From a virus (taxonomy: Duplodnaviria > Caudoviricetes), in the IMG/VR virus record IMGVR_UViG_3300036850_000032, positions 1 through 61,243 of that record: a DNA stretch of 61,243 nucleotides; one strand, given 5' to 3'. The position numbers were made by a program, and so were the translations under genes. Numbering within the stretch: the stretch's first letter is position 1; the number at the start of each line of letters is the position of its first letter. This document shows positions 1,574 through 41,600 of this stretch, piece by piece. The notes beneath the pieces were generated by a model. It had not been told where the DNA came from. It saw only the letters and a program-made list of their open reading frames with translations, and made no database searches.

Positions 1574-1773
1574 TGGAAGACGTTGAGACGCTGAAATGGT
1601 TTGTGTCGCTGGGGGTCGGGGGCATCCTCGCGGGCATGATGTTTTTCTTCTATCGCAAGGACGCCGCGCAGTGGCAGGCGGCCTGGAGAGGACAAAGCGA
1701 AATGCTGGTCCAGGTCGTGAAGGAAAACACGGCAGCAGTGACCGCCCTGATCGAAAAACTGGAAGATAAATGA
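1573..1773 (+). CDS. holin-like small membrane protein (BhlA/UviB-like layout)
   Basis: GTG overlaps the upstream TAG; one TM segment (WFVSLGVGGILAGMMFFFY) followed by a coiled-coil. Confidence 0.55.
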   Translation: MEDVETLKWFVSLGVGGILAGMMFFFYRKDAAQWQAAWRGQSEMLVQVVKENTAAVTALIEKLEDK

Positions 1774-2024
1774 CGCGCGTTCTCCTCATCTCACTGTTCT
1801 GGGGCGGGTTCGGGTTCTTGATCGCCGTGGCCATGTGGGCCGTGGTCACCATCACGCGGATGCGGGCCGAGCAGGCGGCAGCAATCGGCATGCTGCGCGT
1901 GCTCGCGGCGAGGGCAGGACTACAGGAAGCGTTAGAAAAGGTGCAGACGAGCAAGGACGCGGCGCACCGAGCGATCAATGACGTGGGCGGCGCGCCGCCA
2001 CCAAATGAGTCAAAAGGGGGCTGA
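1770..2024 (+). CDS. small membrane protein of lysis cassette
   Basis: N-terminal hydrophobic segment then a helical tail; overlaps the upstream stop. Confidence 0.6.
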   Translation: MTRVLLISLFWGGFGFLIAVAMWAVVTITRMRAEQAAAIGMLRVLAARAGLQEALEKVQTSKDAAHRAINDVGGAPPPNESKGG

Positions 2025-2219: not shown

Positions 2220-2618
2220 ATGGCAATTCCGACTCTTGCGGCCGTCTTACCCAAGGAGGACTCTCCGGGGGACATGCCACACCCCCGGCCACGGAAAGGC
2301 TGGGATATGTCGCCCGCACTGAAAGAGCCGTCACTGACAGATGCATCGAAACTGAGCTTCCCCCTGCAGCTCGTCATCATGATCGCCTCGGCCCTCGGGG
2401 CAGTCTGGGCGAGTCAATATGGCCTGCGGTCGGATGTGCGGGACATCCTCACCCGCATGGAAGCCACGGCGAAGATCGCCGAGATTCAGACCAAGGCGCA
2501 GGAAGACCGGATGACCTCGCTCAACAATGACATCAATGAGATGAAGCGCCGACTGGAGCTCCAGCAGATGCAGTACCAGCAACTCCGCGAAACCGTGTTG
2601 GAAGTGAAAAGGAGATAA
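2220..2618 (+). CDS. membrane-anchored coiled-coil protein (holin/spanin-like); true start may be downstream
   Basis: TM segment LQLVIMIASALGAVWA followed by a long heptad-rich helix. Confidence 0.55.
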   Translation: MAIPTLAAVLPKEDSPGDMPHPRPRKGWDMSPALKEPSLTDASKLSFPLQLVIMIASALGAVWASQYGLRSDVRDILTRMEATAKIAEIQTKAQEDRMTSLNNDINEMKRRLELQQMQYQQLRETVLEVKRR

Positions 2619-33355: not shown

Positions 33356-35755
33356 GTGGCTGAAGGCGCTGATCTCGACATCCGCCCCGCCCGTTCGGTG
33401 CAACTCGTCACCGCTGGCCGGGACGTGTCTCCCGAGGATCAGCGAGACAGCAAAGCCGCCGAAGCGGAGCGCCTCCGCAAGCAAAAGCTTGTGGAGGAAG
33501 GCATCCGCCGCTGGAAAGCCTGCTCGGAAGCCGAAGCCAAGCAACGCCAGCGCGAGAAAGAGGATCTGGAGTTTGCCCGCGCGCTCCCCGAAGATCAGTG
33601 GCCCGAGGAACTGCTCAGAACCCGTGCCGGCGGGACGATCAACGGCATCGTGACGGCGGCGCGTCCCTGCCTCGTCATTCCCAAACTCAATGCCCCAGTT
33701 GATCAGACGGTCAACGAAGCGCGCAATGCCCGACTGAGTATCCGGGTCAAGCCCAAGGGGCAATTCTCGAACAAGAAGGGCGCCCAACTCCGCCAGGAGA
33801 TGATCCGTGCGATCGAGGTGGACAGCAACGCCACCCAGCCGCGGCTGTGGGCACTCAACCGAGCCGCCATCTGCGGCCGGGGCTGGTATCGCGTCGTGAA
33901 GGAGTACGCCGCCGATGGCGACTTCCTGATCGATCTCGTCACGAAGGGCATTCCGAATCAAGGCTCGGTCTACTGCGATCCCTTCGCGAATGAACCAGAC
34001 AAGTCCGATGCCGAGTTCATGTTTGTGACCTCGGACTTCGCGCCAGCCGAATACAAGCGGCGGTTTCCGAAGAGTGAACTGGCGGAGTCAAGCGCCGATG
34101 GCGACCTGTTCTCCACGACGGCGGATCTGCCTTTGGATTGGGTGAACGAGAAGCATTTCCGGGTGGCGGAGTACTTCTACGTTGAGCACAAGGATCGCAT
34201 CCTGATCGAAACCCCGCTAGAGCTCGGCGGCAAGCATCGTTTCGCGGATGAACTCCCGCCCGAGTTGCAAGCGGCCATCCCGAAGGGCATCAAGACGCGT
34301 ACCGTCGACCATCGCACCGTCCGCTGGTGCCTGATGAACGCCGTCGAGATCCTCGAGGAAGAGCAGTGGGAAGGCCGGACGATCCCGATCATCCCCGTGG
34401 TCGGCTCTGTCTCCAATGTGGAAGGCGAGTGGGTCTACAAAGGCATCGTCAGCAACGCCAAGGATGCCCAGCGCTCGTACAACTACGGCCGTTCAGCGCA
34501 AGTCGAGAGTGTCGGACTCGCCCCGCGCGCGCCGTGGGTCATTGCCGAGGGGCAAGTGAAGGGCTACGAGGACGTGTGGGAGCAGGCGAATACCTACGGC
34601 GGCAATTACCTGCCGTATGTGCCCACGAGTCTGGAAGGCCAGCCCGTTCCCCCGCCGCAACGCAATACCGTCGAGCCTGCTATCCAGGCGATCACTTTGA
34701 TGGTGCGCGAGGCGGACAACGACATCAAGGCCACGACAGGCCGGTACGATCCCAGTCTCGGCAATCTCGATCCGAACGCCCGTTCGGGCAAAGCCCTCAA
34801 GGAACTAAAACAGCAGGGCGAGCTCGGCTCCAGTCACTTCCTGGACAACCTCGCCAACGTGTCGATGCGGCGGGAAGCCCTGATCTATCTGGAGATGCTC
34901 TATCCGGTCTATGGCACGACACCGGGCCGGATCGCGCGGTTGCTCGGCGAGGAAGAGGAAGACGCCCGCGAAGTGATGCTCGGCAAGCCATTCGTGCCCG
35001 ATGAGGACGGCCGTCCAGTCGAAGCGCCGGCGGATCATCCCGCCGCCCAGCGCTACGAGCTGGACGAAGACGGCGAATACGCCGTGGTGGTGAGTGTCGG
35101 CAAGTCCTCGCAGACGCAGCGGGAAGACAACGCGGAACTGCTCAAGTCCATCTTTGAAGCGGCTCCGCAAGTCGCCGAGGCTGGCGCGGACATCTTCGTG
35201 GAGCAGTTGGAAGGCCCGGTCGCGGAACGGCTCGCTAAGCGCTTACGGAAGCTCAATCCGGCCCTCGCCGATGAGGACGAGAGCGGAGCGAAGCCGCCGG
35301 TCGATCCCGCGATGCAGCAACAACTCCAGCAGCTGCAGCAGGCGAATCAGCAGTTGGAAACCTCGCTGAAGCAAACCGTCGAGGAACTGAAGACGCAGAA
35401 GGCAGCCGCGGACGCTGAGGCCCAAGTCAAGCGCGAGGAGATTCAGGCCAAGGCCCAAGCCGCGCAGGCGGAGCAGGCCGCGAAGCAGCAGACCGCGCAG
35501 ATGGAACTGGAAGCCAAACAGCGTCAGTTTGAGGCGGAACTCGCGGCGAAGCGCGAGATGTTTGCAATGGAGCTGGCGAGCAAGAAGGAACTGGCGCTGC
35601 TGGAGATGGAGAACGATCTTCGCAAGGCGCAGATCGCATCGGATGCGAAGGCGCAGCAGTTGGAGATGCAGGCACAGGCCGCGCGCGAGTCACAGGTGCG
35701 GGATCAGGCGTTTCAGGCAGTGAGTGAGAAGCCGGAGATGGGAGCAGGCGCGTGA
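33356..35755 (+). CDS. P22-like portal protein
   Basis: RPCL.I.KL, CG.GW.RV, V..DP....D.SDA, VAEYF, G.V...KD.QR.YNY, SGKAL...QQG...F.DNL, long C-terminal helical barrel. Confidence 0.92.
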   Translation: MAEGADLDIRPARSVQLVTAGRDVSPEDQRDSKAAEAERLRKQKLVEEGIRRWKACSEAEAKQRQREKEDLEFARALPEDQWPEELLRTRAGGTINGIVTAARPCLVIPKLNAPVDQTVNEARNARLSIRVKPKGQFSNKKGAQLRQEMIRAIEVDSNATQPRLWALNRAAICGRGWYRVVKEYAADGDFLIDLVTKGIPNQGSVYCDPFANEPDKSDAEFMFVTSDFAPAEYKRRFPKSELAESSADGDLFSTTADLPLDWVNEKHFRVAEYFYVEHKDRILIETPLELGGKHRFADELPPELQAAIPKGIKTRTVDHRTVRWCLMNAVEILEEEQWEGRTIPIIPVVGSVSNVEGEWVYKGIVSNAKDAQRSYNYGRSAQVESVGLAPRAPWVIAEGQVKGYEDVWEQANTYGGNYLPYVPTSLEGQPVPPPQRNTVEPAIQAITLMVREADNDIKATTGRYDPSLGNLDPNARSGKALKELKQQGELGSSHFLDNLANVSMRREALIYLEMLYPVYGTTPGRIARLLGEEEEDAREVMLGKPFVPDEDGRPVEAPADHPAAQRYELDEDGEYAVVVSVGKSSQTQREDNAELLKSIFEAAPQVAEAGADIFVEQLEGPVAERLAKRLRKLNPALADEDESGAKPPVDPAMQQQLQQLQQANQQLETSLKQTVEELKTQKAAADAEAQVKREEIQAKAQAAQAEQAAKQQTAQMELEAKQRQFEAELAAKREMFAMELASKKELALLEMENDLRKAQIASDAKAQQLEMQAQAARESQVRDQAFQAVSEKPEMGAGA

Positions 35756-36054: not shown

Positions 36055-37209
36055 ATGGCAGGTATCGAATCCAATTCCACCGTCCTCCCCCCGATCACCT
36101 CGGGCACCGCGGATAGCTGGTCCTTTGACTCGGCGAGTATCAGCGATCAATCCGAACCGCTCGGCACCGTGACGGAGCCGGAGCCCGGCGATCAGCCCGC
36201 GCCCGATGACGCCGAACTGGCCACCGAACCTGCCGCGCCTGCTGCACCGAAGGTGGAAGCGAAGCCTGAGGCCCCGGCACAGCCCAGTAAGAAGCGTCAG
36301 ACGATCACTGAGCGGACAAACGTCCTCAAGGCGGAACTGGCGCAAACACTGCGCGAGCGGGCACAGGCGCGTGAGGAACTCGCCGATCTGCAACGCCAGC
36401 GTGACGCCCTCCGCGGCGAAGTCGGACGCCAACCGGCACCGCCACGACAGGAGCCAGCCCGCTCGGCACCGCCGCCTGCGTCCACGCTCGGCCCGAAACC
36501 GGAGTGGGACAAATTCGAGGCTGACGGCAAGTCATGGAAGGAATACGAGGACGCCAAAGATGCGTGGCTGGAAGCCAAGGCCGAGGAAAAGGCCACGGCC
36601 CGCATCAAGAGCGAGATCGCGTCGATCGAAGATCGCCGTCTCTCTGACGCCCAGCGCGCCCGAGAGGCGGAGATCGCGCAGAGGTACGCCGCGAAGATGG
36701 ACGCGGTCCACGCCAAGTACCCCGACTTCGCGGCGCAAGTGGATGCGAATCTGGCCGGCGTGCAAACCTCTGGCTTCATGAAAGCCATTCTTGTGCATCA
36801 CGCACAGGGTGGCGAAGTGTTGTATCATTGGGCGCGGCATCCGCATCAAGCCGAAATCATCGCGACCTTCCGGCCCACGAGGCCGATCATGGACGCGGTG
36901 GCGACGGCCGAGGATCCGATTCCGCTCTTATCTCACTTTGCCGAGCATCGGGCAGAGTTCGAGGCGCTGACACAGATGCCTCCGGCCAGACAACTCCTCG
37001 AGTTGGGCCGCCTCCAACAGCGACTTGAGGGTGCCTCGCGCACGTCCGACCCGCCCTCACGGTCATCGGTGAAATCTCCGGCACCTCCCTTCCGGGCGAT
37101 GGGCGGTACGGCTGCGGCGGTCAGCGACAGCTCCGAGACCACAGGCGATGACTTCGCGGATTGGGTCCGCGCAGAGAATCGCCGGCAAGCGCAGAGAGCA
37201 GGTCGTTAA
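36055..37209 (+). CDS. scaffolding protein
   Basis: Between portal and coat; acidic/Pro-rich N-terminus, coiled-coil, KYPDF, G.EVLY.., ELGRL. Confidence 0.8.
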   Translation: MAGIESNSTVLPPITSGTADSWSFDSASISDQSEPLGTVTEPEPGDQPAPDDAELATEPAAPAAPKVEAKPEAPAQPSKKRQTITERTNVLKAELAQTLRERAQAREELADLQRQRDALRGEVGRQPAPPRQEPARSAPPPASTLGPKPEWDKFEADGKSWKEYEDAKDAWLEAKAEEKATARIKSEIASIEDRRLSDAQRAREAEIAQRYAAKMDAVHAKYPDFAAQVDANLAGVQTSGFMKAILVHHAQGGEVLYHWARHPHQAEIIATFRPTRPIMDAVATAEDPIPLLSHFAEHRAEFEALTQMPPARQLLELGRLQQRLEGASRTSDPPSRSSVKSPAPPFRAMGGTAAAVSDSSETTGDDFADWVRAENRRQAQRAGR

Positions 37210-37229
37210 GCCGTCACACCCGGTGACGC

Positions 37230-38624
37230 ATGAGACATCATGCCTATGATTCCGATCCTCCGCGTTCTCGACTCGCACTGATTACCTGGCTCGCTCTCGC
37301 GGTCTGCGTGACGGCGGCGAGTCTGGTCCTCAGTCACTACACGTCGGACTGGTCCGGCGTGCTCGCGCTCAATACCCTCATCACCCCGACGTGGGTCATG
37401 CGTGAAGTCGGCCGGCTGCTCGTCAACAATCTGAAGTTCTCCGCGAACGTCAGCCGCAGTTACGACAGCCAATACAAGCGCATGGGCGCGAAGGTGGGCA
37501 ACACGGTCAATGCCCGTCTCCCCTTCCGGCCGCGCGTCTCCAAGTCGCAGGCGATCAACATCCAGTCGGTGGCGGATCAGATCGTCCCGATCACCCTCAC
37601 CGATCAGGCCAACACCGCCGTGGACTTCTCCACGATGGAAGAGACCACGCAGGTCGATGACTACCGGAGTCGCTACATCCAGCCCGGCGTTGAGTCCCTC
37701 GTCAACACGATGGATGCCGATGGCCTCAACCGGATGTATAAGGCGACGTTCTGGACGGTCGGCACACCCGGCACCGTGCCAGGCTCCACCGGCACCAACC
37801 CGCAAGCCGCCTATCTCACCTATCTGCAAGCGGGCGTGAAGCTCTCGAACAGCGCGGTTCCGCCGGATGGACGCATTGCCGTGTTGAACCCCAACATGCA
37901 CGCGTACCTCGCGGCTGGCGGCCTGACGATCTTCAACCCGCAGGCGCAGATGAGCAAGGTGTATCGCTCAGGGCAGTTCAGCGGGCATGCGCTGGGCTTC
38001 TCGGCGTGGTACGAAGATCAGAACGTGTTCCCGCACGTCATCGGGACGGCGACGGGCACGCCGCTCATCAACGGGGCGTCGCAGACCGGCTCCAGCATCA
38101 TCACCGATGGCTGGACGGCGAGCGTCACGATCCTGCTGCAGGGCGATGTCATCCAGTTCGCGGGCGTCAACGCCGTGAACCCGATGTCCTACCAGAGCAC
38201 GGGGCAGTTACAGGATTTCGTGGTCACGGCGGATGTCACCTCGGACGGATCGGGCAATGCGACCATCCCGGTCTACCCCGCGCTCACCACGAGTGGGCAG
38301 CTCCAGACCGTGACCGGTTCGCCCGCGAACAACGCCGCGATCACCGTGTTCGGGACGGCGCAAGCGGGTCTCGCGGCGCAGGCGGGCATCACCACGCCGC
38401 AAGCGCTGATGTATCACCCCGACGCGTATGCGCTGGTCATGGCGGATCTCGTGCTGCCGAAGGGCTTGTGGATGAGCGAGCGGATCTCCAGTGAGGAACT
38501 GGCGGTCTCGGTGCGCTTCCTCAAGCAATACGACATCATGACCGACCTGTCGGCGGCGCGCGTCGATGTGCTCTACGGCTGGAAGGCCGTGAGACCAGAG
38601 ATGGGGGCCAGGCTCGCAGCCTGA
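37230..38624 (+). CDS. P22-like major capsid (coat) protein with N-terminal hydrophobic extension
   Basis: NTLITP.W..RE...L.NNL.F...V.R.YD, G.KVG.T...R.P, DD...RYI.P, I-domain GDVI.FAGV.AVNP, QYDI..D....R.DVLYG...VRPE. Confidence 0.93.
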   Translation: MRHHAYDSDPPRSRLALITWLALAVCVTAASLVLSHYTSDWSGVLALNTLITPTWVMREVGRLLVNNLKFSANVSRSYDSQYKRMGAKVGNTVNARLPFRPRVSKSQAINIQSVADQIVPITLTDQANTAVDFSTMEETTQVDDYRSRYIQPGVESLVNTMDADGLNRMYKATFWTVGTPGTVPGSTGTNPQAAYLTYLQAGVKLSNSAVPPDGRIAVLNPNMHAYLAAGGLTIFNPQAQMSKVYRSGQFSGHALGFSAWYEDQNVFPHVIGTATGTPLINGASQTGSSIITDGWTASVTILLQGDVIQFAGVNAVNPMSYQSTGQLQDFVVTADVTSDGSGNATIPVYPALTTSGQLQTVTGSPANNAAITVFGTAQAGLAAQAGITTPQALMYHPDAYALVMADLVLPKGLWMSERISSEELAVSVRFLKQYDIMTDLSAARVDVLYGWKAVRPEMGARLAA

Positions 38625-38637
38625 GAAAGAGGACATC

Positions 38638-39465
38638 ATGAGTCTCACCTATCTCAACTCCACGACGATCACCAATGCCATCGCTGCCGATACGCAGCGA
38701 TTCCTCGTCGCCAGTACGACCAACATCACGGTTGGCGGGTTTCTGGTGGCGAACAAAGAATGCATGCTCGTGCAGGCGATCCCGGTCAGTGGGACCGTGG
38801 AGGTCATGCGCGGCGTGAACGGGAGCGTCGCGGCGGCCTACCCGGCACTCCAGACCGTCTGGATCGGGACCGGATCGTCGATCGGCGTGCCCAATGCCGA
38901 TGGCGAGGTCCAGCTCGTGGCCACCCCGTCCACGGGCCTCCCTGGCTACAAGCTGCCGCTCGGTACGCGCATCCGTCTGGCGGGCAGTGAGTACGTGTTG
39001 TGCGACTTCAGCGCGACCATGTACAGCCGGCAGCCCTGCACGATCGATGAGGGGACGTGGTTGGCCACGCCCATCGCGACCACGGGCCGGGGTCGGATCG
39101 GCGTCGTGGCGGAGCCCGAAGGCGGCACGTCCGATCAGTGGGGCTGGGTCCAGATCTATGGCCGCTGCCTCATGCAGATCGGGATGTCGGGCGTGTCGCC
39201 GTCGGATGCGGCGAACGGCCCGACCACGCTCAGCACGTCCGTGCAAACGCGGTTCGCCCTGCCCACGTCACTCACCACCCCGGCCGCGCTGGGCTGGGTC
39301 TCGGATCCCTCGTCTGGTGGGTACATCGTGCAAGGGATGTGGGTCGCGACCGATGCCTCGCCCGGCGATGTGTCGGCCGTGACGAGTGCGGCGAGTCACA
39401 CCGGATCGCAGATCGCGGTGTTTCTCAACTACCCCAGCCTCAAGTTCGAGGTGGAGGCGACGTAA
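38638..39465 (+). CDS. probable head decoration/cement protein
   Basis: Strong AAAGAGGA RBS directly after coat; beta-rich, WGWVQIYG motif. Confidence 0.55.
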   Translation: MSLTYLNSTTITNAIAADTQRFLVASTTNITVGGFLVANKECMLVQAIPVSGTVEVMRGVNGSVAAAYPALQTVWIGTGSSIGVPNADGEVQLVATPSTGLPGYKLPLGTRIRLAGSEYVLCDFSATMYSRQPCTIDEGTWLATPIATTGRGRIGVVAEPEGGTSDQWGWVQIYGRCLMQIGMSGVSPSDAANGPTTLSTSVQTRFALPTSLTTPAALGWVSDPSSGGYIVQGMWVATDASPGDVSAVTSAASHTGSQIAVFLNYPSLKFEVEAT

Positions 39466-39470
39466 GCCTG

Positions 39471-40289
39471 ATGGCGGCGATCATGTTTCTGTCGGGCCAA
39501 GGACACGGGGGGGCGGCACACCGCCGCCCTCCCTATTTCCGTGGCACAAAGAAGCTCGGCCTCATCGGCAGCACGACCAACAACCAACATGCGCCGTGGC
39601 ATGACACGAGTTGGATGCTGGTCTCACACACCTGTAGCCGACCGGACTGCAAGCGTGAGCCAGATTGGTACTTTGACCTGCATCGGCGTGAGTGCTTCAC
39701 GCAGCGAAAGCGCTGGAATCTGAACTATCACCAGTGGCTCAAGACGCTGCAAACGCCGATCTTTATGCAGGAGGAGTGGAAAGAGATCCCGATGTCTGTG
39801 CGGTATCCGCTCGAGCGGGTGCAGGCGGAGTACGGCACCTCTGTTCATGCAGGGAACGTGTTCACCAATCACGTCTCCTACATGTTTCCGTTGGCGATGG
39901 CGGAGGGGATCGAGACGATTGGTTTGTTCGGCTGTCAGTACTCGGCCGCGGATGATCGCGGGCCGCAGCGCGACACGTTGCTGTATTGGATGGGGCGCTT
40001 TGAGCAATGGGGCGGCCGTCTCGTGATCCCGTCCCCGAATACGCTGCTGGCCGTCCCGCGGGGCTTGTACGGCTACGAGAGTCACGACGAGCACGGCAAG
40101 CTGGTACCGGAATACACCGCCGTCAAAGCCCCCGCCGCTTCCGCTCCTGTGGAGCCGTCACAGACCTTACGCGAGCGCGGCGCCGTGGTGATTGACATGG
40201 ATCGGGTGGAGGGTCGCCCGCCCCTGACACCGCCGCCGAATGGAGAGCCCATCGCATGGGATCGATCTGGACTGACACGGCACGCGTAA
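39471..40289 (+). CDS. glycosyltransferase-like protein (GT29/MAF-like fold)
   Basis: IGS...APW.D..W; WYFDLH; YP; FTN.VSYM..LA..EG.E.IGLFG..Y...QR....YW.G. Confidence 0.55.
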   Translation: MAAIMFLSGQGHGGAAHRRPPYFRGTKKLGLIGSTTNNQHAPWHDTSWMLVSHTCSRPDCKREPDWYFDLHRRECFTQRKRWNLNYHQWLKTLQTPIFMQEEWKEIPMSVRYPLERVQAEYGTSVHAGNVFTNHVSYMFPLAMAEGIETIGLFGCQYSAADDRGPQRDTLLYWMGRFEQWGGRLVIPSPNTLLAVPRGLYGYESHDEHGKLVPEYTAVKAPAASAPVEPSQTLRERGAVVIDMDRVEGRPPLTPPPNGEPIAWDRSGLTRHA

Positions 40290-40585: not shown

Positions 40586-40921
40586 ATGACGAGACAAATG
40601 CTTTCTCTAATCGCCGGACTACTGGTGCTCACGGTGCCGCTGACTGCTCAGCGCGTACAGACGTACGAGCAGCTCACCGTGTCCAGCACGGCGGTGCTGA
40701 TCTCGGCCGCCACGTTGAGCAAGATGAACGCTGGACAAGGCGTCTTGCAGGGCGCCGAGATTCGCTACCGCTGCGACGGCACGGCCCCCACTACTACCGT
40801 GGGCACACCACTCCAGGTGGGCAGCACGATTACCTTCGGGAACGTCATCGATGCGCGGGCCTGTCAATTCATCAGGACGACTGGGACCGACGGCGTGCTC
40901 AATCTGAATTTCTGGCAGTAA
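40586..40921 (+). CDS. small beta-rich structural-type protein with Sec signal peptide
   Basis: MTRQMLSLIAGLLVLTVPLTA|Q; IRYR.DGTAPT...G..L..G motif. Confidence 0.7.
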   Translation: MTRQMLSLIAGLLVLTVPLTAQRVQTYEQLTVSSTAVLISAATLSKMNAGQGVLQGAEIRYRCDGTAPTTTVGTPLQVGSTITFGNVIDARACQFIRTTGTDGVLNLNFWQ

Positions 40922-40925
40922 GACC

Positions 40926-41600
40926 ATGACCACACACCTTCGGTCAATCGCGGCACTGTGCGTCGCGCTGCTTGCGATGTTCGCGATTGGATTGCCAGCG
41001 CAGGTCTCACAGACGCCTGGGCCGTTTGTGCTCGGGAGTGGTGCATTTACCCCTCAACTGTTTGGGCCAGTGGTCGGGAACTGCACCACGCCCGCGTACA
41101 GCTTTGCCGGCGATGGGAACACGGGCTACGGCGCGTCCAGTACTGAGACGTTGGTGCTGTGTACCGCTGGCACTGAGCGGATCCAGATTTCCAACAACAT
41201 CATCATCCTCGGATCTGGTGCGGCGTCGGCCTCGATTCGCTTTAACAACGCCCCCACGCTTGGATTCGGGACCTCCGTCTTCATGTCTGGCACGGCGCCG
41301 ACGATCAGCTCCGGCTTCGGCACCTCTCCGTCCGTCGTGGCGAACAACGGGACTGCCGCCTTCACGATCAACGTCGGGACCGGCGGCACGGCCTCTACTG
41401 GCGTGATTGGATTGCCTGCAGCCACCACGGGGTGGCATGTGCAGTGCCAGAACACAAGCACCAATACCGCGACCGTCTTCATCACGAAACAAACCGGCGC
41501 GACCACCACCACCGCCACCATCGGCAACTACGATGCGGCCGGCGCGGCAGCCGCTTGGGTGGCCTCCAACGTCCTCTTGTGCTCGGCGACGGGGTACTGA
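40926..41600 (+). CDS. fibre-like protein with Sec signal peptide
   Basis: MTTHLRSIAALCVALLAMFAIGLPA|Q; P.YSF.GD.NTG fibre repeat; Thr/Gly/Ala-rich. Confidence 0.7.
   Translation: MTTHLRSIAALCVALLAMFAIGLPAQVSQTPGPFVLGSGAFTPQLFGPVVGNCTTPAYSFAGDGNTGYGASSTETLVLCTAGTERIQISNNIIILGSGAASASIRFNNAPTLGFGTSVFMSGTAPTISSGFGTSPSVVANNGTAAFTINVGTGGTASTGVIGLPAATTGWHVQCQNTSTNTATVFITKQTGATTTTATIGNYDAAGAAAAWVASNVLLCSATGY

What the first reader, a model, noticed from the sequence alone, without database searches (positions are those of the whole stretch)
37230..37375. Major capsid protein begins with a ~47-aa leader containing a transmembrane/signal-like helix
Seen: MRHHAYDSDPPRSR-LALITWLALAVCVTAASLVL-SHYTSDWSGVLAL precedes NTLITP, where P22-like coats normally begin. 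There is no ATG near NTLITP; the only alternative is a GTG four codons upstream with no evident RBS. Inference: the coat may be made as a membrane-tethered precursor processed by a protease, implying membrane-associated procapsid assembly. No phage prohead protease is evident in the window. This fits the other export-signal observations.
Basis: partly seen in the sequence, partly recalled or inferred. Interest (0 to 1): 0.7.

Follow-up and report, generated by a model that had tools for sequence, protein, structure and literature searches.

The report
Membrane-type leader on phage coat protein
The shell protein of this uncultured soil-type phage is made with a conserved 47-residue front piece that looks like a bacterial membrane anchor or secretion signal, which is unexpected because such phage shells are built inside the cell.

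Summary
ORF 37230-38624 is a P22-type coat (PF11651, E 6e-33) whose family match starts at residue 46. Residues 1-47 are a basic tip, a ~21-residue hydrophobic helix (Kyte-Doolittle 2.34) and a polar acidic linker.

It is not an ORF-calling artefact. The same in-frame extension occurs in 31 of 120 top homologues, window included, and in 13 of 82 distinct DNA loci. One of these is a prophage in a Vicinamibacterales chromosome.

Leaderless relatives start with ATG two to six codons before N48 (62 of 66). Leader-bearing loci never have an ATG there (0 of 12), and 5 of 12 have no ATG/GTG/TTG between helix and N48. In that class the Shine-Dalgarno signal and the start-proximal GC3 dip sit at the leader ATG. 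For the window alone the Shine-Dalgarno scores do not separate ATG 37230 from GTG 37359.

Function is inferred only. The charge pattern (basic before, acidic after the helix) fits a signal anchor. Taken literally, that topology would put the coat outside the cytoplasm, which is unexplained. No prohead protease was found. Cleavage and membrane-bound assembly remain untested.

None of the 48 deposited phage records that matched showed the leader, and five literature searches found no description.

The parts
33356..35755 (+). P22-type portal gene (context)
   Evidence: PF16510 E 4.2e-125; phrog_156; N-terminus not hydrophobic
36055..37209 (+). Head scaffolding protein gene. It stops 20 nt before the coat ATG and is in a different frame.
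   Evidence: phrog_8865 E 1.9e-23. The 20-nt gap is within the range of leader-bearing loci (14-77 nt) and near the median of leaderless loci (24 nt).
37222..37226 (+). GGTGA, a weak Shine-Dalgarno-like element 3 nt before ATG 37230
   Evidence: Read. Duplex with a 13-nt anti-SD tail -7.4 kcal/mol, but only -3.0 with the 9-nt tail. Equivocal in this window alone.
37230..37271 (+). Leader n-region, residues 1-14 (MRHHAYDSDPPRSR): start codon and basic tip
   Evidence: 3 K/R. GC3 0.29 in the first 14 codons. The start-proximal GC3 dip is shared by leader-bearing loci (mean 0.67 against 0.85 further on).
37272..37334 (+). Hydrophobic helix, residues 15-35 (LALITWLALAVCVTAASLVLS)
   Evidence: KD19 2.34; AF2 helix 14-37. 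GC3 of codons 15-47 is 0.85, against 0.87 for the coat body.
37335..37370 (+). Polar, acidic linker and junction, residues 36-47 (HYTSDWSGVLAL)
   Evidence: AF2 pLDDT below 50 for residues 36-49. Across leaders the linker has no K/R in 30 of 39 and has D/E in 30 of 39. A small residue lies in the last four positions in 39 of 39.
37359..37361 (+). GTG (V44), the only upstream alternative start near the mature N-terminus
   Evidence: Not conserved: P0002 has Thr here. 7 of 12 leader-bearing loci have no ATG/GTG/TTG within 13 codons before N48.
37371..38624 (+). Coat body (N48 to stop): N-arm, HK97-type core and inserted domain
   Evidence: PF11651 E 6.1e-33; phrog_283 E 1.9e-63. PDB sequence matches to 'Gene 5 protein' 5l35 and 7sp4, E 1.1e-12.
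37398..37400 (+). ATG (M57) inside the conserved N-arm. Gene callers used this position as the start in some homologues.
   Evidence: 7 of 120 homologues are called from this or a nearby downstream point ('trunc'). M57 is a conserved residue in both classes.

Best explanation
The coat gene is translated from ATG 37230. The product is a precursor with a 47-residue N-terminal leader of signal-anchor type: a basic tip, a ~21-residue hydrophobic helix and a polar acidic linker. The leader is joined to an otherwise ordinary P22-type coat that works with a separate scaffolding protein.

The leader is an inherited, selected module of a sub-lineage of temperate P22-like podophages of Acidobacteriota. 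It is not an annotation artefact (about 0.9).

Most likely (about 0.5, inferred) the helix sends the new coat subunit to the cytoplasmic membrane and holds it there. This would keep subunits out of the cytosol or concentrate them until scaffold and portal recruit them.

The leader is then either removed by a host enzyme near the conserved hydrophobic-hydrophobic-small junction just before N48 (about 0.3) or kept, tucked inside the shell.

Shown: the ORF, its conservation, the position of the start signals, the hydropathy and the charge asymmetry. Inferred: membrane insertion, topology, cleavage and the benefit.
For: 1. Conservation.
- 31 of 120 top homologues, window included, carry a 33-53-residue extension with the same plan.
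- So do 12 of 82 distinct DNA loci, plus L080 just under my threshold. L049 is a prophage in a Vicinamibacterales chromosome with portal, scaffold, coat, adaptor and head-closure genes.
- The closest relative, P0002 (81-83% identical overall), matches 33 of 47 leader residues and differs by an in-frame 3-codon gap (counted by eye).

2. Start signals.
- Leaderless loci have ATG within 6 codons before N48 in 62 of 66. Leader-bearing loci have it in 0 of 12.
- 5 of 12 have no ATG/GTG/TTG between helix and N48, and 2 more only at 14 or more codons.
- Median anti-SD duplex energy is -6.1 kcal/mol at the leader ATG and -2.4 at the position matching the leaderless start. Background is -2.6, and leaderless starts are -5.9.
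- The GC3 dip sits at the leader ATG (0.67) and not at N48 (0.91). In leaderless genes the same N-arm codons dip to 0.59.

3. Gene layout. The gap from scaffold stop to leader ATG is 14-77 nt, similar to the gap to the normal start in leaderless loci (median 24 nt). This leaves no room for a separate small gene.

4. Membrane-type features.
- KD19 is 1.87 or more in 12 of 13 loci, against 0 of 65 reaching 1.6 in the other frames.
- The N-flank has 2 or more K/R in 35 of 39 leaders. The linker has K/R in only 9 of 39 and D/E in 30 of 39.
- AF2 gives a single helix at 14-37.

5. Phylogeny. The leader state is clustered, with at least 5 changes against 27.3 for shuffled labels and 0 of 500 shuffles as low. 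One starred clade of 21 is all leader-bearing.

6. The module is coat-specific. 7 of 8 hits in 1.84 billion representatives are N-terminal coat fragments.
Against: - Topology problem. A basic N-flank and an acidic C-flank predict N-in/C-out (positive-inside rule, recalled). That would place the 417-residue coat domain outside the cytoplasm, away from scaffold, portal, terminase and ATP. None of those proteins has a hydrophobic N-terminus.
- No membrane, cleavage or expression data exist.
- No phage protease was found. The record is only about 84% complete by CheckV.
- The linker of 12-17 residues is longer than the c-region of ordinary signal peptidase I substrates (recalled).
- The leader is dispensable for the fold. 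66 of 82 loci lack it, including the window's next-nearest relative P0003.
- In this window alone the SD evidence does not separate ATG 37230 from GTG 37359, and a GTG does lie four codons before N48.
- The tree is FastTree only, and no AU test was run.
Confidence: 0.5

Rival explanations
1. Retained internal arm. The leader is translated but never enters a membrane. The hydrophobic helices of neighbouring subunits bundle under the capsomers inside the procapsid, acting as a small delta-domain-like assembly aid. The basic tip faces scaffold or DNA.
For: - The N-arm of P22-type coats faces the shell interior (recalled), so the leader would point inward.
- Many leaders have a conserved Asn/Gln after about 14 hydrophobic residues and an H-[YF] pair. 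This is sequence conservation beyond plain hydrophobicity.
- It avoids the topology paradox.
- No protease is needed, and none was found.
Against: - A helix with KD19 of 2.0-2.5 next to a basic N-tip is the kind that the cell's targeting machinery sends to the membrane (recalled).
- A full scaffolding protein is present in all seven leader-bearing loci tested, window included (phrog_8865), so no extra scaffold function is required.
- The consistent basic-before, acidic-after charge asymmetry is what topology selection gives.
Confidence: 0.2
2. True export or moonlighting. The leader works as its sequence suggests (N-in/C-out). All or part of the coat pool, or the freed leader peptide, acts in the envelope, for example in exclusion, as a decoy or in lysis timing. 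Capsids would be built from a fraction that escapes targeting.
For: - The charge pattern fits N-in/C-out.
- The hydrophobic-hydrophobic-small residue junction is compatible with the -3/-1 rule in 39 of 39 leaders.
- Adjacent late genes carry classical signal peptides ending A|Q: window 40586 and 40926, and ORFs in L023, L029 and L097.
- Such ORFs occur downstream of the coat in 4 of 6 leader-bearing loci against 4 of 35 leaderless loci.
Against: - 5 of 12 loci have no internal start that could give a leaderless cytosolic form, and the phage needs hundreds of cytosolic coat copies per particle.
- The linker is long for signal peptidase I (recalled).
- Positive N-arm residues K58, R62 and R63 follow the junction.
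- The association with downstream signal-peptide genes may only reflect shared ancestry.
Confidence: 0.1
3. Two isoforms in this window. Both ATG 37230 and GTG 37359 are used, giving a minor anchored form and a major leaderless form.
For: - A GTG lies four codons before N48.
- Five of 12 leader-bearing loci have a GTG or TTG within five codons of N48.
- SD-like pairing before the GTG is not worse than before the ATG in this window.
Against: - The GTG is not conserved (Thr in P0002).
- Val and Leu codons are expected by chance in the hydrophobic junction.
- The class as a whole shows background SD energy at that site (-2.4 against a background of -2.6) and no GC3 dip there (0.91).
Confidence: 0.12
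4. Artefact. The leader is an untranslated, chance-open 5' extension, and the coat starts at GTG 37359 or ATG 37398.
For: - Most homologues lack the leader (66 of 82 loci).
- GC-rich DNA gives long open frames.
- The window's SD evidence is weak.
Against: - The frame stays open with the same n-h-linker plan across relatives down to about 44% identity.
- The hydrophobic signal is frame-specific (0 of 65 other frames).
- GC3 of codons 15-47 is 0.85, like the coat body.
- Start signals sit at the leader ATG.
- The ATG of the leaderless start is lost in 12 of 12 leader-bearing loci.
- A start at M57 would delete invariant N-arm residues.
Confidence: 0.06

Closest known systems
P22-type major coat proteins (Pfam PF11651; PDB 5l35 and 7sp4 'Gene 5 protein', which I recall to be phage Sf6; P22 gp5)
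   Same: Family match over residues 46-462. The inserted domain matches solved coat domains. The gene order is portal, scaffold, coat, followed further downstream by adaptor and head-closure genes. No prohead protease was found.
   Different: The solved and cultured members begin at the position of residue 46-48. Of the 40 listed rows (48 phage records matched), 38 start at query residue 38-51. The two remaining rows, Xylella phage Xfas53 at 27.8% identity, run across an annotated scaffold/capsid boundary and were not examined further.
N-terminal propeptides of HK97-fold coats removed at maturation (HK97 gp5 delta domain, T4 gp23 propeptide; recalled)
   Same: An N-terminal extension on the coat, ahead of the N-arm, that would face the procapsid interior.
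   Different: Those are soluble and are cut by a phage-encoded prohead protease. The HK97 delta domain replaces a scaffold. Here the extension is membrane-type hydrophobic, a separate scaffold gene exists, and no S78, S49, ClpP or S26 gene was found. The S77 search was uninformative.
Staphylococcal phage 80alpha capsid and scaffold leaders cut by the host protease Prp (recalled; also named in earlier scan note e1-6098468)
   Same: A precedent for a short coat leader removed by a host enzyme in a phage without a prohead protease.
   Different: That leader is about 14 residues, not hydrophobic, and is shared with the scaffold. Here the scaffold has no such leader.
Sec signal peptides and type II signal anchors, including the procoat of filamentous phages (M13 gp8; recalled)
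   Same: A basic n-region, a hydrophobic h-region, a polar region with helix breakers and a small residue at the junction.
   Different: The leader is 33-53 residues, with a ~20-residue hydrophobic stretch and a 12-17-residue linker. The passenger is a 417-residue capsid protein that must act in the cytoplasm. Filamentous-phage coats are small and assemble by extrusion through the membrane.
Membrane-anchored capsid proteins of membrane-containing or enveloped viruses (STIV major capsid C-terminal helix, flavivirus anchored capsid protein; recalled)
   Same: A hydrophobic terminal helix ties a capsid protein to a lipid bilayer, in one case until a protease frees it.
   Different: Different folds and different virus lineages. 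To my knowledge no tailed phage with an HK97-fold coat is known to use this. Five literature searches found none (listings and abstract starts only).

Membership tests
P22_CoatProtein (PF11651) | Profile match above the curated cut-off over the whole domain | tested here: met
   114.7 bits against a cut-off of 24, E 6.1e-33, residues 46-462 on profile positions 2-421 of 423
P22_CoatProtein (PF11651) | P22-like head module: portal, separate scaffold, coat, no prohead protease | tested here: met
   PF16510 portal and phrog_8865 scaffold. No protease family found (S77 uninformative). The record is about 84% complete.
P22_CoatProtein (PF11651) | Protein begins at the N-arm (M-A-N...) | tested here: not met
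   47 extra residues precede N48. This is the variant feature.
Type II signal anchor / single N-terminal transmembrane helix | A hydrophobic stretch of about 19 or more residues with Kyte-Doolittle mean above 1.6 (threshold recalled) | tested here: met
   KD19 2.34 in the window; 1.87-2.51 in 12 of 13 loci
Type II signal anchor / single N-terminal transmembrane helix | Positive-inside charge asymmetry | tested here: met
   The N-flank has 2 or more K/R in 35 of 39 leaders. The linker has K/R in 9 of 39 and D/E in 30 of 39.
Type II signal anchor / single N-terminal transmembrane helix | Actual membrane insertion and topology | not testable with these tools
   No experimental data, and no TMHMM or SignalP-type predictor was available
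Cleaved Sec signal peptide (signal peptidase I) | A short c-region (3-7 residues) with small residues at -1 and -3 (rule recalled) | tested here: inconclusive
   A small residue lies in the last four leader positions in 39 of 39, preceded by hydrophobic residues. However, the polar stretch between the hydrophobic core and the junction is 12-17 residues.
Cleaved Sec signal peptide (signal peptidase I) | The passenger functions outside the cytoplasm | not testable with these tools
   Established capsid biology argues against it. Portal, scaffold and terminase have no leader.
Twin-arginine (Tat) signal | An RR pair in an S/T-R-R-x-F-L-K-like motif before the h-region (recalled) | tested here: not met
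   The window has R12-S-R14. The common pattern is W-x-x-R-[SP] (20 of 39) with a second R four residues on. I saw adjacent RR in two leaders only, by eye.
Lipoprotein signal (lipobox) | L-[AS]-[GA]-C at the end of the h-region (recalled) | tested here: not met
   The window has L-A-V-C26 in mid-helix. P0002 has Leu at that position.
Prohead-protease-processed propeptide (HK97 delta, T4 gp23) | A phage-encoded prohead protease next to the coat gene | tested here: not met
   Six-frame searches for PF04586, PF01343, PF00574 and PF10502 found nothing. The PF03420 control was silent. Pfam on 55 ORFs found none.

The most novel reading that the evidence does not exclude
A lineage of tailed, HK97-fold phages really does anchor its major coat protein in the host inner membrane. 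Heads would then be nucleated or built on the membrane, or the virion would carry lipid or membrane-type helices inside. This would go together with the export-signal-bearing late proteins encoded beside the coat gene. It would be an assembly route not known for any tailed phage.
Probability: 0.15. Interest if true: 0.9.

Novelty: new variant of a known kind. Interest (0 to 1): 0.7.

Why it matters
Tailed-phage shells are textbook cytoplasmic self-assemblies. A conserved membrane-type leader on the major coat protein contradicts the expected cell biology, especially in a lineage with a normal scaffold and no maturation protease. It poses a clear and testable question: where is this coat made, and is the leader cut?

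Possible answers include membrane-assisted head assembly, host-protease maturation, and sequestration of free coat subunits away from cytosolic sensors.

The finding also has a practical side. Gene callers disagree on the start of these coat genes, so annotation of this family is inconsistent. Of the 120 top homologues, 7 are called from M57 or a nearby downstream point, about 31 are long and about 75 are short.

Tried and rejected
- A separate small membrane-protein gene between scaffold and coat. Rejected: there is no stop between leader and coat in 13 loci. In leaderless loci the scaffold-to-coat gap is a median of 24 nt, and 53 of 55 are at most 120 nt.
- The leader as a read-through tail of the scaffold. 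Rejected: the frames differ and a TAA lies at 37207.
- Tat, lipoprotein and prepilin signals. Their motifs are absent (by inspection).
- The leader module on other proteins. A profile of leader plus 12 N-arm residues against 1.84 billion representatives gave 8 hits. Seven are coat N-terminal fragments and one is an unrelated repeat protein. Full-length leader-bearing coats did not appear, presumably because 50% clusters are represented by other members. This search therefore cannot count the class.
- ESM Atlas on residues 1-52. There was no usable hit by features. The structure look-alikes are single N-terminal helices of unrelated anchored proteins and support no inference.
- Cultured phages. 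48 records matched, all at 37% identity or less, and none showed the leader.
- Literature. Five searches were seen as listings and abstract starts only. No paper was opened and none describes such a leader. Supplementary files were not consulted.
- Earlier notes on this genome: none.
I used the search for related loci instead.
- Not done: an AU test of one origin of the leader, RNA read mapping, and complex prediction.
Full report
WHAT IS THERE. The window is a linear virus record of 61,243 bases, about 84% complete by CheckV. It is a temperate P22-like podophage. It encodes an integrase, Cro/CI-type regulators, ERF and YqaJ recombination proteins, Dam, and small and large terminase. It also encodes a P22-type portal (PF16510, E 4e-125), a scaffolding protein (phrog_8865, E 2e-23) and a coat (PF11651, E 6e-33; phrog_283, E 2e-63), followed by adaptor, head-closure and ejection-protein genes.

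The coat ORF runs from 37230 to 38624 and encodes 464 residues. The Pfam profile starts at residue 46. They consist of a basic tip (MRHHAYDSDPPRSR), a 21-residue hydrophobic stretch (LALITWLALAVCVTAASLVLS) and a polar linker (HYTSDWSGVLAL).

IS IT MORE THAN CHANCE? The hydrophobic stretch scores 2.34 on the Kyte-Doolittle scale over 19 residues. The usual threshold of 1.6 is recalled, not computed here. In 13 leader-bearing loci the coat frame gives 1.38-2.51. The other five frames of the same DNA never exceed 0.94 (0 of 65 reach 1.6), and 76 coat bodies reach at most 1.74. GC3 of leader codons 15-47 is 0.85, the same as the coat body at 0.87. AlphaFold2 with 31 aligned sequences models residues 14-37 as one helix with block-mean pLDDT 71-79, followed by a low-confidence linker. 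The overall mean pLDDT is 65, so the model is only moderate.

IS IT TRANSLATED? The comparative evidence is the core of this report.

Of the 120 best homologues (2752 hits among 8000 scored candidates), 31 including the window carry a 33-53-residue extension with the same plan. Another 75 start at the N-arm. Seven are called from a downstream Met. Seven are odd or partial and were left out of the tree. I moved P0004 into the long class and P0100 out of it by hand.

At the DNA level, 82 distinct loci could be anchored on N48.
- 66 have a stop within 35 codons upstream and no leader.
- 12 have the open, hydrophobic extension. L038 and L090 have identical leaders.
- L080 has the extension with a lower score.
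- L077 has a long open frame without a helix and a normal M-P start.
- Two loci end at contig edges.

Leaderless loci have an ATG within six codons of N48 in 62 of 66, and exactly two codons before it in 50. Leader-bearing loci have none within 13 codons (0 of 12). Five of the 12 have no ATG, GTG or TTG anywhere between the helix and N48. Two more have one only at 14 or 16 codons. Five, including the window, have a GTG or TTG within five codons. The N-arm residues just after the junction are invariant or nearly so: N48 and P53 are invariant, and V51, T52 and V56 are at 90% or more. They must therefore be translated, and in those loci only the leader ATG can serve.

The ribosome-binding signal agrees. 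The median anti-Shine-Dalgarno duplex energy is -6.1 kcal/mol before the leader ATG. It is -2.4 at the site that matches the leaderless start. In-frame background is -2.6 (n = 4940), and real leaderless starts give -5.9.

The start-proximal drop in GC3 is a known mark of initiation regions (recalled). In the long class it lies at the leader ATG (0.67, then 0.85) and is absent at N48 (0.91). In leaderless genes the same N-arm codons drop to 0.59.

The scaffold stop lies 14-77 nt before the leader ATG. This is similar to the median of 24 nt before the normal start in leaderless loci. The leader is therefore an insertion inside the coat ORF and not a separate gene.

For this window alone the Shine-Dalgarno evidence is equivocal. 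A GGTGA lies 3 nt before the ATG. The scores are -7.4 for the ATG against -7.5 for GTG 37359 with a long anti-SD tail, and -3.0 against -4.8 with a short one. However, the GTG codon is not conserved in the closest relative. P0002 is 81-83% identical and has Thr at that position. Its leader matches the window's in 33 of 47 residues, by my count, with an in-frame three-codon gap.

WHO HAS IT. On a FastTree of 113 coat bodies with the leader columns removed, the leader state needs at least five changes. Starred branches force three of them. Shuffled labels need 27.3 on average, and 0 of 500 shuffles were as low. One starred clade of 21 is entirely leader-bearing. The window and P0002 form a starred pair next to the leaderless P0003. 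The module has therefore been kept for a long time in one clade and has been gained, lost or exchanged a few times. I did not run an AU test.

Named hosts are Acidobacteriota: a Vicinamibacterales chromosome (L049, leader-bearing), an 'Acidobacteria bacterium' contig and Candidatus Sulfopaludibacter (both leaderless).

Among 48 deposited phage records that match the coat, all at 37% identity or less, I saw no leader. Of the 40 rows listed, 38 start at query residue 38-51. The two Xfas53 rows start at residue 10 but cross an annotated scaffold/capsid boundary at 27.8% identity, and I did not follow them up.

A profile of the leader plus 12 N-arm residues found only N-terminal fragments of such coats (7 of 8 hits) in 1.84 billion representatives. 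No other kind of protein carried it.

WHAT KIND OF LEADER. Across 39 leaders the median length is 46 residues. The N-flank has two or more Lys/Arg in 35 of 39. The stretch after the hydrophobic core has Lys/Arg in only 9 of 39 and Asp/Glu in 30 of 39. A small residue preceded by hydrophobic ones sits in the last four positions in 39 of 39. The motif W-x-x-R-[S/P] occurs in 20 of 39. Many leaders also share an Asn or Gln after about 14 hydrophobic residues and an H-[Y/F] pair.

This is the layout of a signal anchor or a long signal peptide. It does not fit a Tat, lipoprotein or prepilin signal.

The same phages encode classical signal peptides ending in A|Q on late proteins beside the coat gene. 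In the window these are at 40586 and 40926. Such ORFs occur downstream of the coat in 4 of 6 leader-bearing loci with enough flank, against 4 of 35 leaderless loci. Shared ancestry may explain that link.

HOW IT MOST LIKELY WORKS. What is shown is a translated, conserved, membrane-type leader on an otherwise ordinary coat that has its own scaffold and no phage protease. Pfam on 55 ORFs and six-frame searches for S78, S49, ClpP and S26 were all negative. The S77 search was uninformative because its control was silent.

My best reading, at about 0.5, is that the helix targets and holds the new subunit at the inner membrane. The leader would then either be removed by a host enzyme near the conserved junction or be kept inside the shell.

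The serious difficulty is topology. The charge pattern predicts the N-terminus inside and the C-terminus outside. That would export the coat domain, yet portal, scaffold and terminase have no such leader and packaging needs the cytoplasm. I cannot resolve this by computation, so it stays unexplained.

The rivals are:
- a retained, non-membrane internal helix bundle (0.2);
- two isoforms in this window through the GTG (0.12);
- true export or moonlighting of the coat or the freed peptide (0.1);
- an untranslated artefact (0.06).

COMPARISON AND NOVELTY. The body is a member of PF11651 and matches solved coat proteins in the PDB (5l35 and 7sp4 'Gene 5 protein', E 1e-12). The leader has no counterpart there.

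Known coat propeptides (HK97 delta, T4 gp23, 80alpha; all recalled) are soluble and are cut by a phage protease or, in 80alpha, by a dedicated host protease. Known membrane-anchored capsid proteins belong to other virus lineages (recalled).

Five literature searches gave no description of such a leader. I saw listings and abstract starts only and read no paper.

Earlier notes of this scan report the same phenomenon in other genomes. One describes a 42-residue membrane-signal-like leader on a P22-type coat in a 94.5-kb soil phage (e1-5984645). Another describes Sec signals on late proteins of an Acidobacteria podophage (e1-5899522). A third describes a signal-like leader shared by coat and scaffold in another phage (e1-3431378). 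These are unchecked leads that agree with, but do not independently support, the present reading.

I rate this a new variant of a known kind, with interest 0.7.

Noticed in passing
window 40586-40921 and 40926-41600 (+): Two late-region ORFs of 111 and 224 aa begin with classical signal peptides ending ..TA|Q and ..PA|Q. Neither has a Pfam or PHROG match. ORFs with similar N-termini and a shared (Y/F)-E-(Q/S)-(L/I)-T-V motif lie downstream of the coat in L097 and L055.
   Followed up: partly
window 38638-39465 (+); L023:7881-9134; L029:7301-8542: The gene right after the coat shares a roughly 75-residue tail-protein-like domain (phrog_1101, positions about 556-637) with the post-coat genes of L023 and L029. 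Those two carry an N-terminal hydrophobic segment that the window's copy lacks.
   Followed up: partly
loci L023, L029, L097 and window, against leaderless loci: Signal-peptide-like ORFs within 4 kb downstream of the coat occur in 4 of 6 leader-bearing loci and in 4 of 35 leaderless loci (L039, L055, L076, L078). This used my own crude ORF and hydropathy rule and was not corrected for relatedness.
   Followed up: partly
leaders of P0008, P0015, P0019, P0022, P0028, P0029, P0034, P0035, P0043, P0047, P0053, P0056, P0065, P0102 and others: Many leaders have a conserved Asn or Gln after about 14 hydrophobic residues, then four or five hydrophobic residues and an H-[Y/F] pair. The window has S-H-Y. 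A polar residue inside the helix could drive helix-helix association.
   Followed up: no
protein P0100 (413 aa, seen on 41 contigs): This coat homologue has a different hydrophobic N-terminus that joins the coat near residue 80, so the N-arm is missing. It may be a mis-call or another variant.
   Followed up: no
window 1770-2024, 2028-2207, 2220-2618 (+): Three small adjacent ORFs have strongly hydrophobic segments and no family match. They may form a lysis cassette.
   Followed up: no
window 39057-40289 (+): A 410-codon open frame overlaps the 3' part of 38638-39465 in another frame. It has no Pfam or PHROG match, and its real start is probably near 39480.
   Followed up: no
loci L018, L023, L038, L082 upstream of the leader ATG: A conserved stretch GAG(A/G)GGTCTGAGCC or close variants precedes the leader ATG. 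It contains the Shine-Dalgarno element and an in-frame TGA.
   Followed up: no
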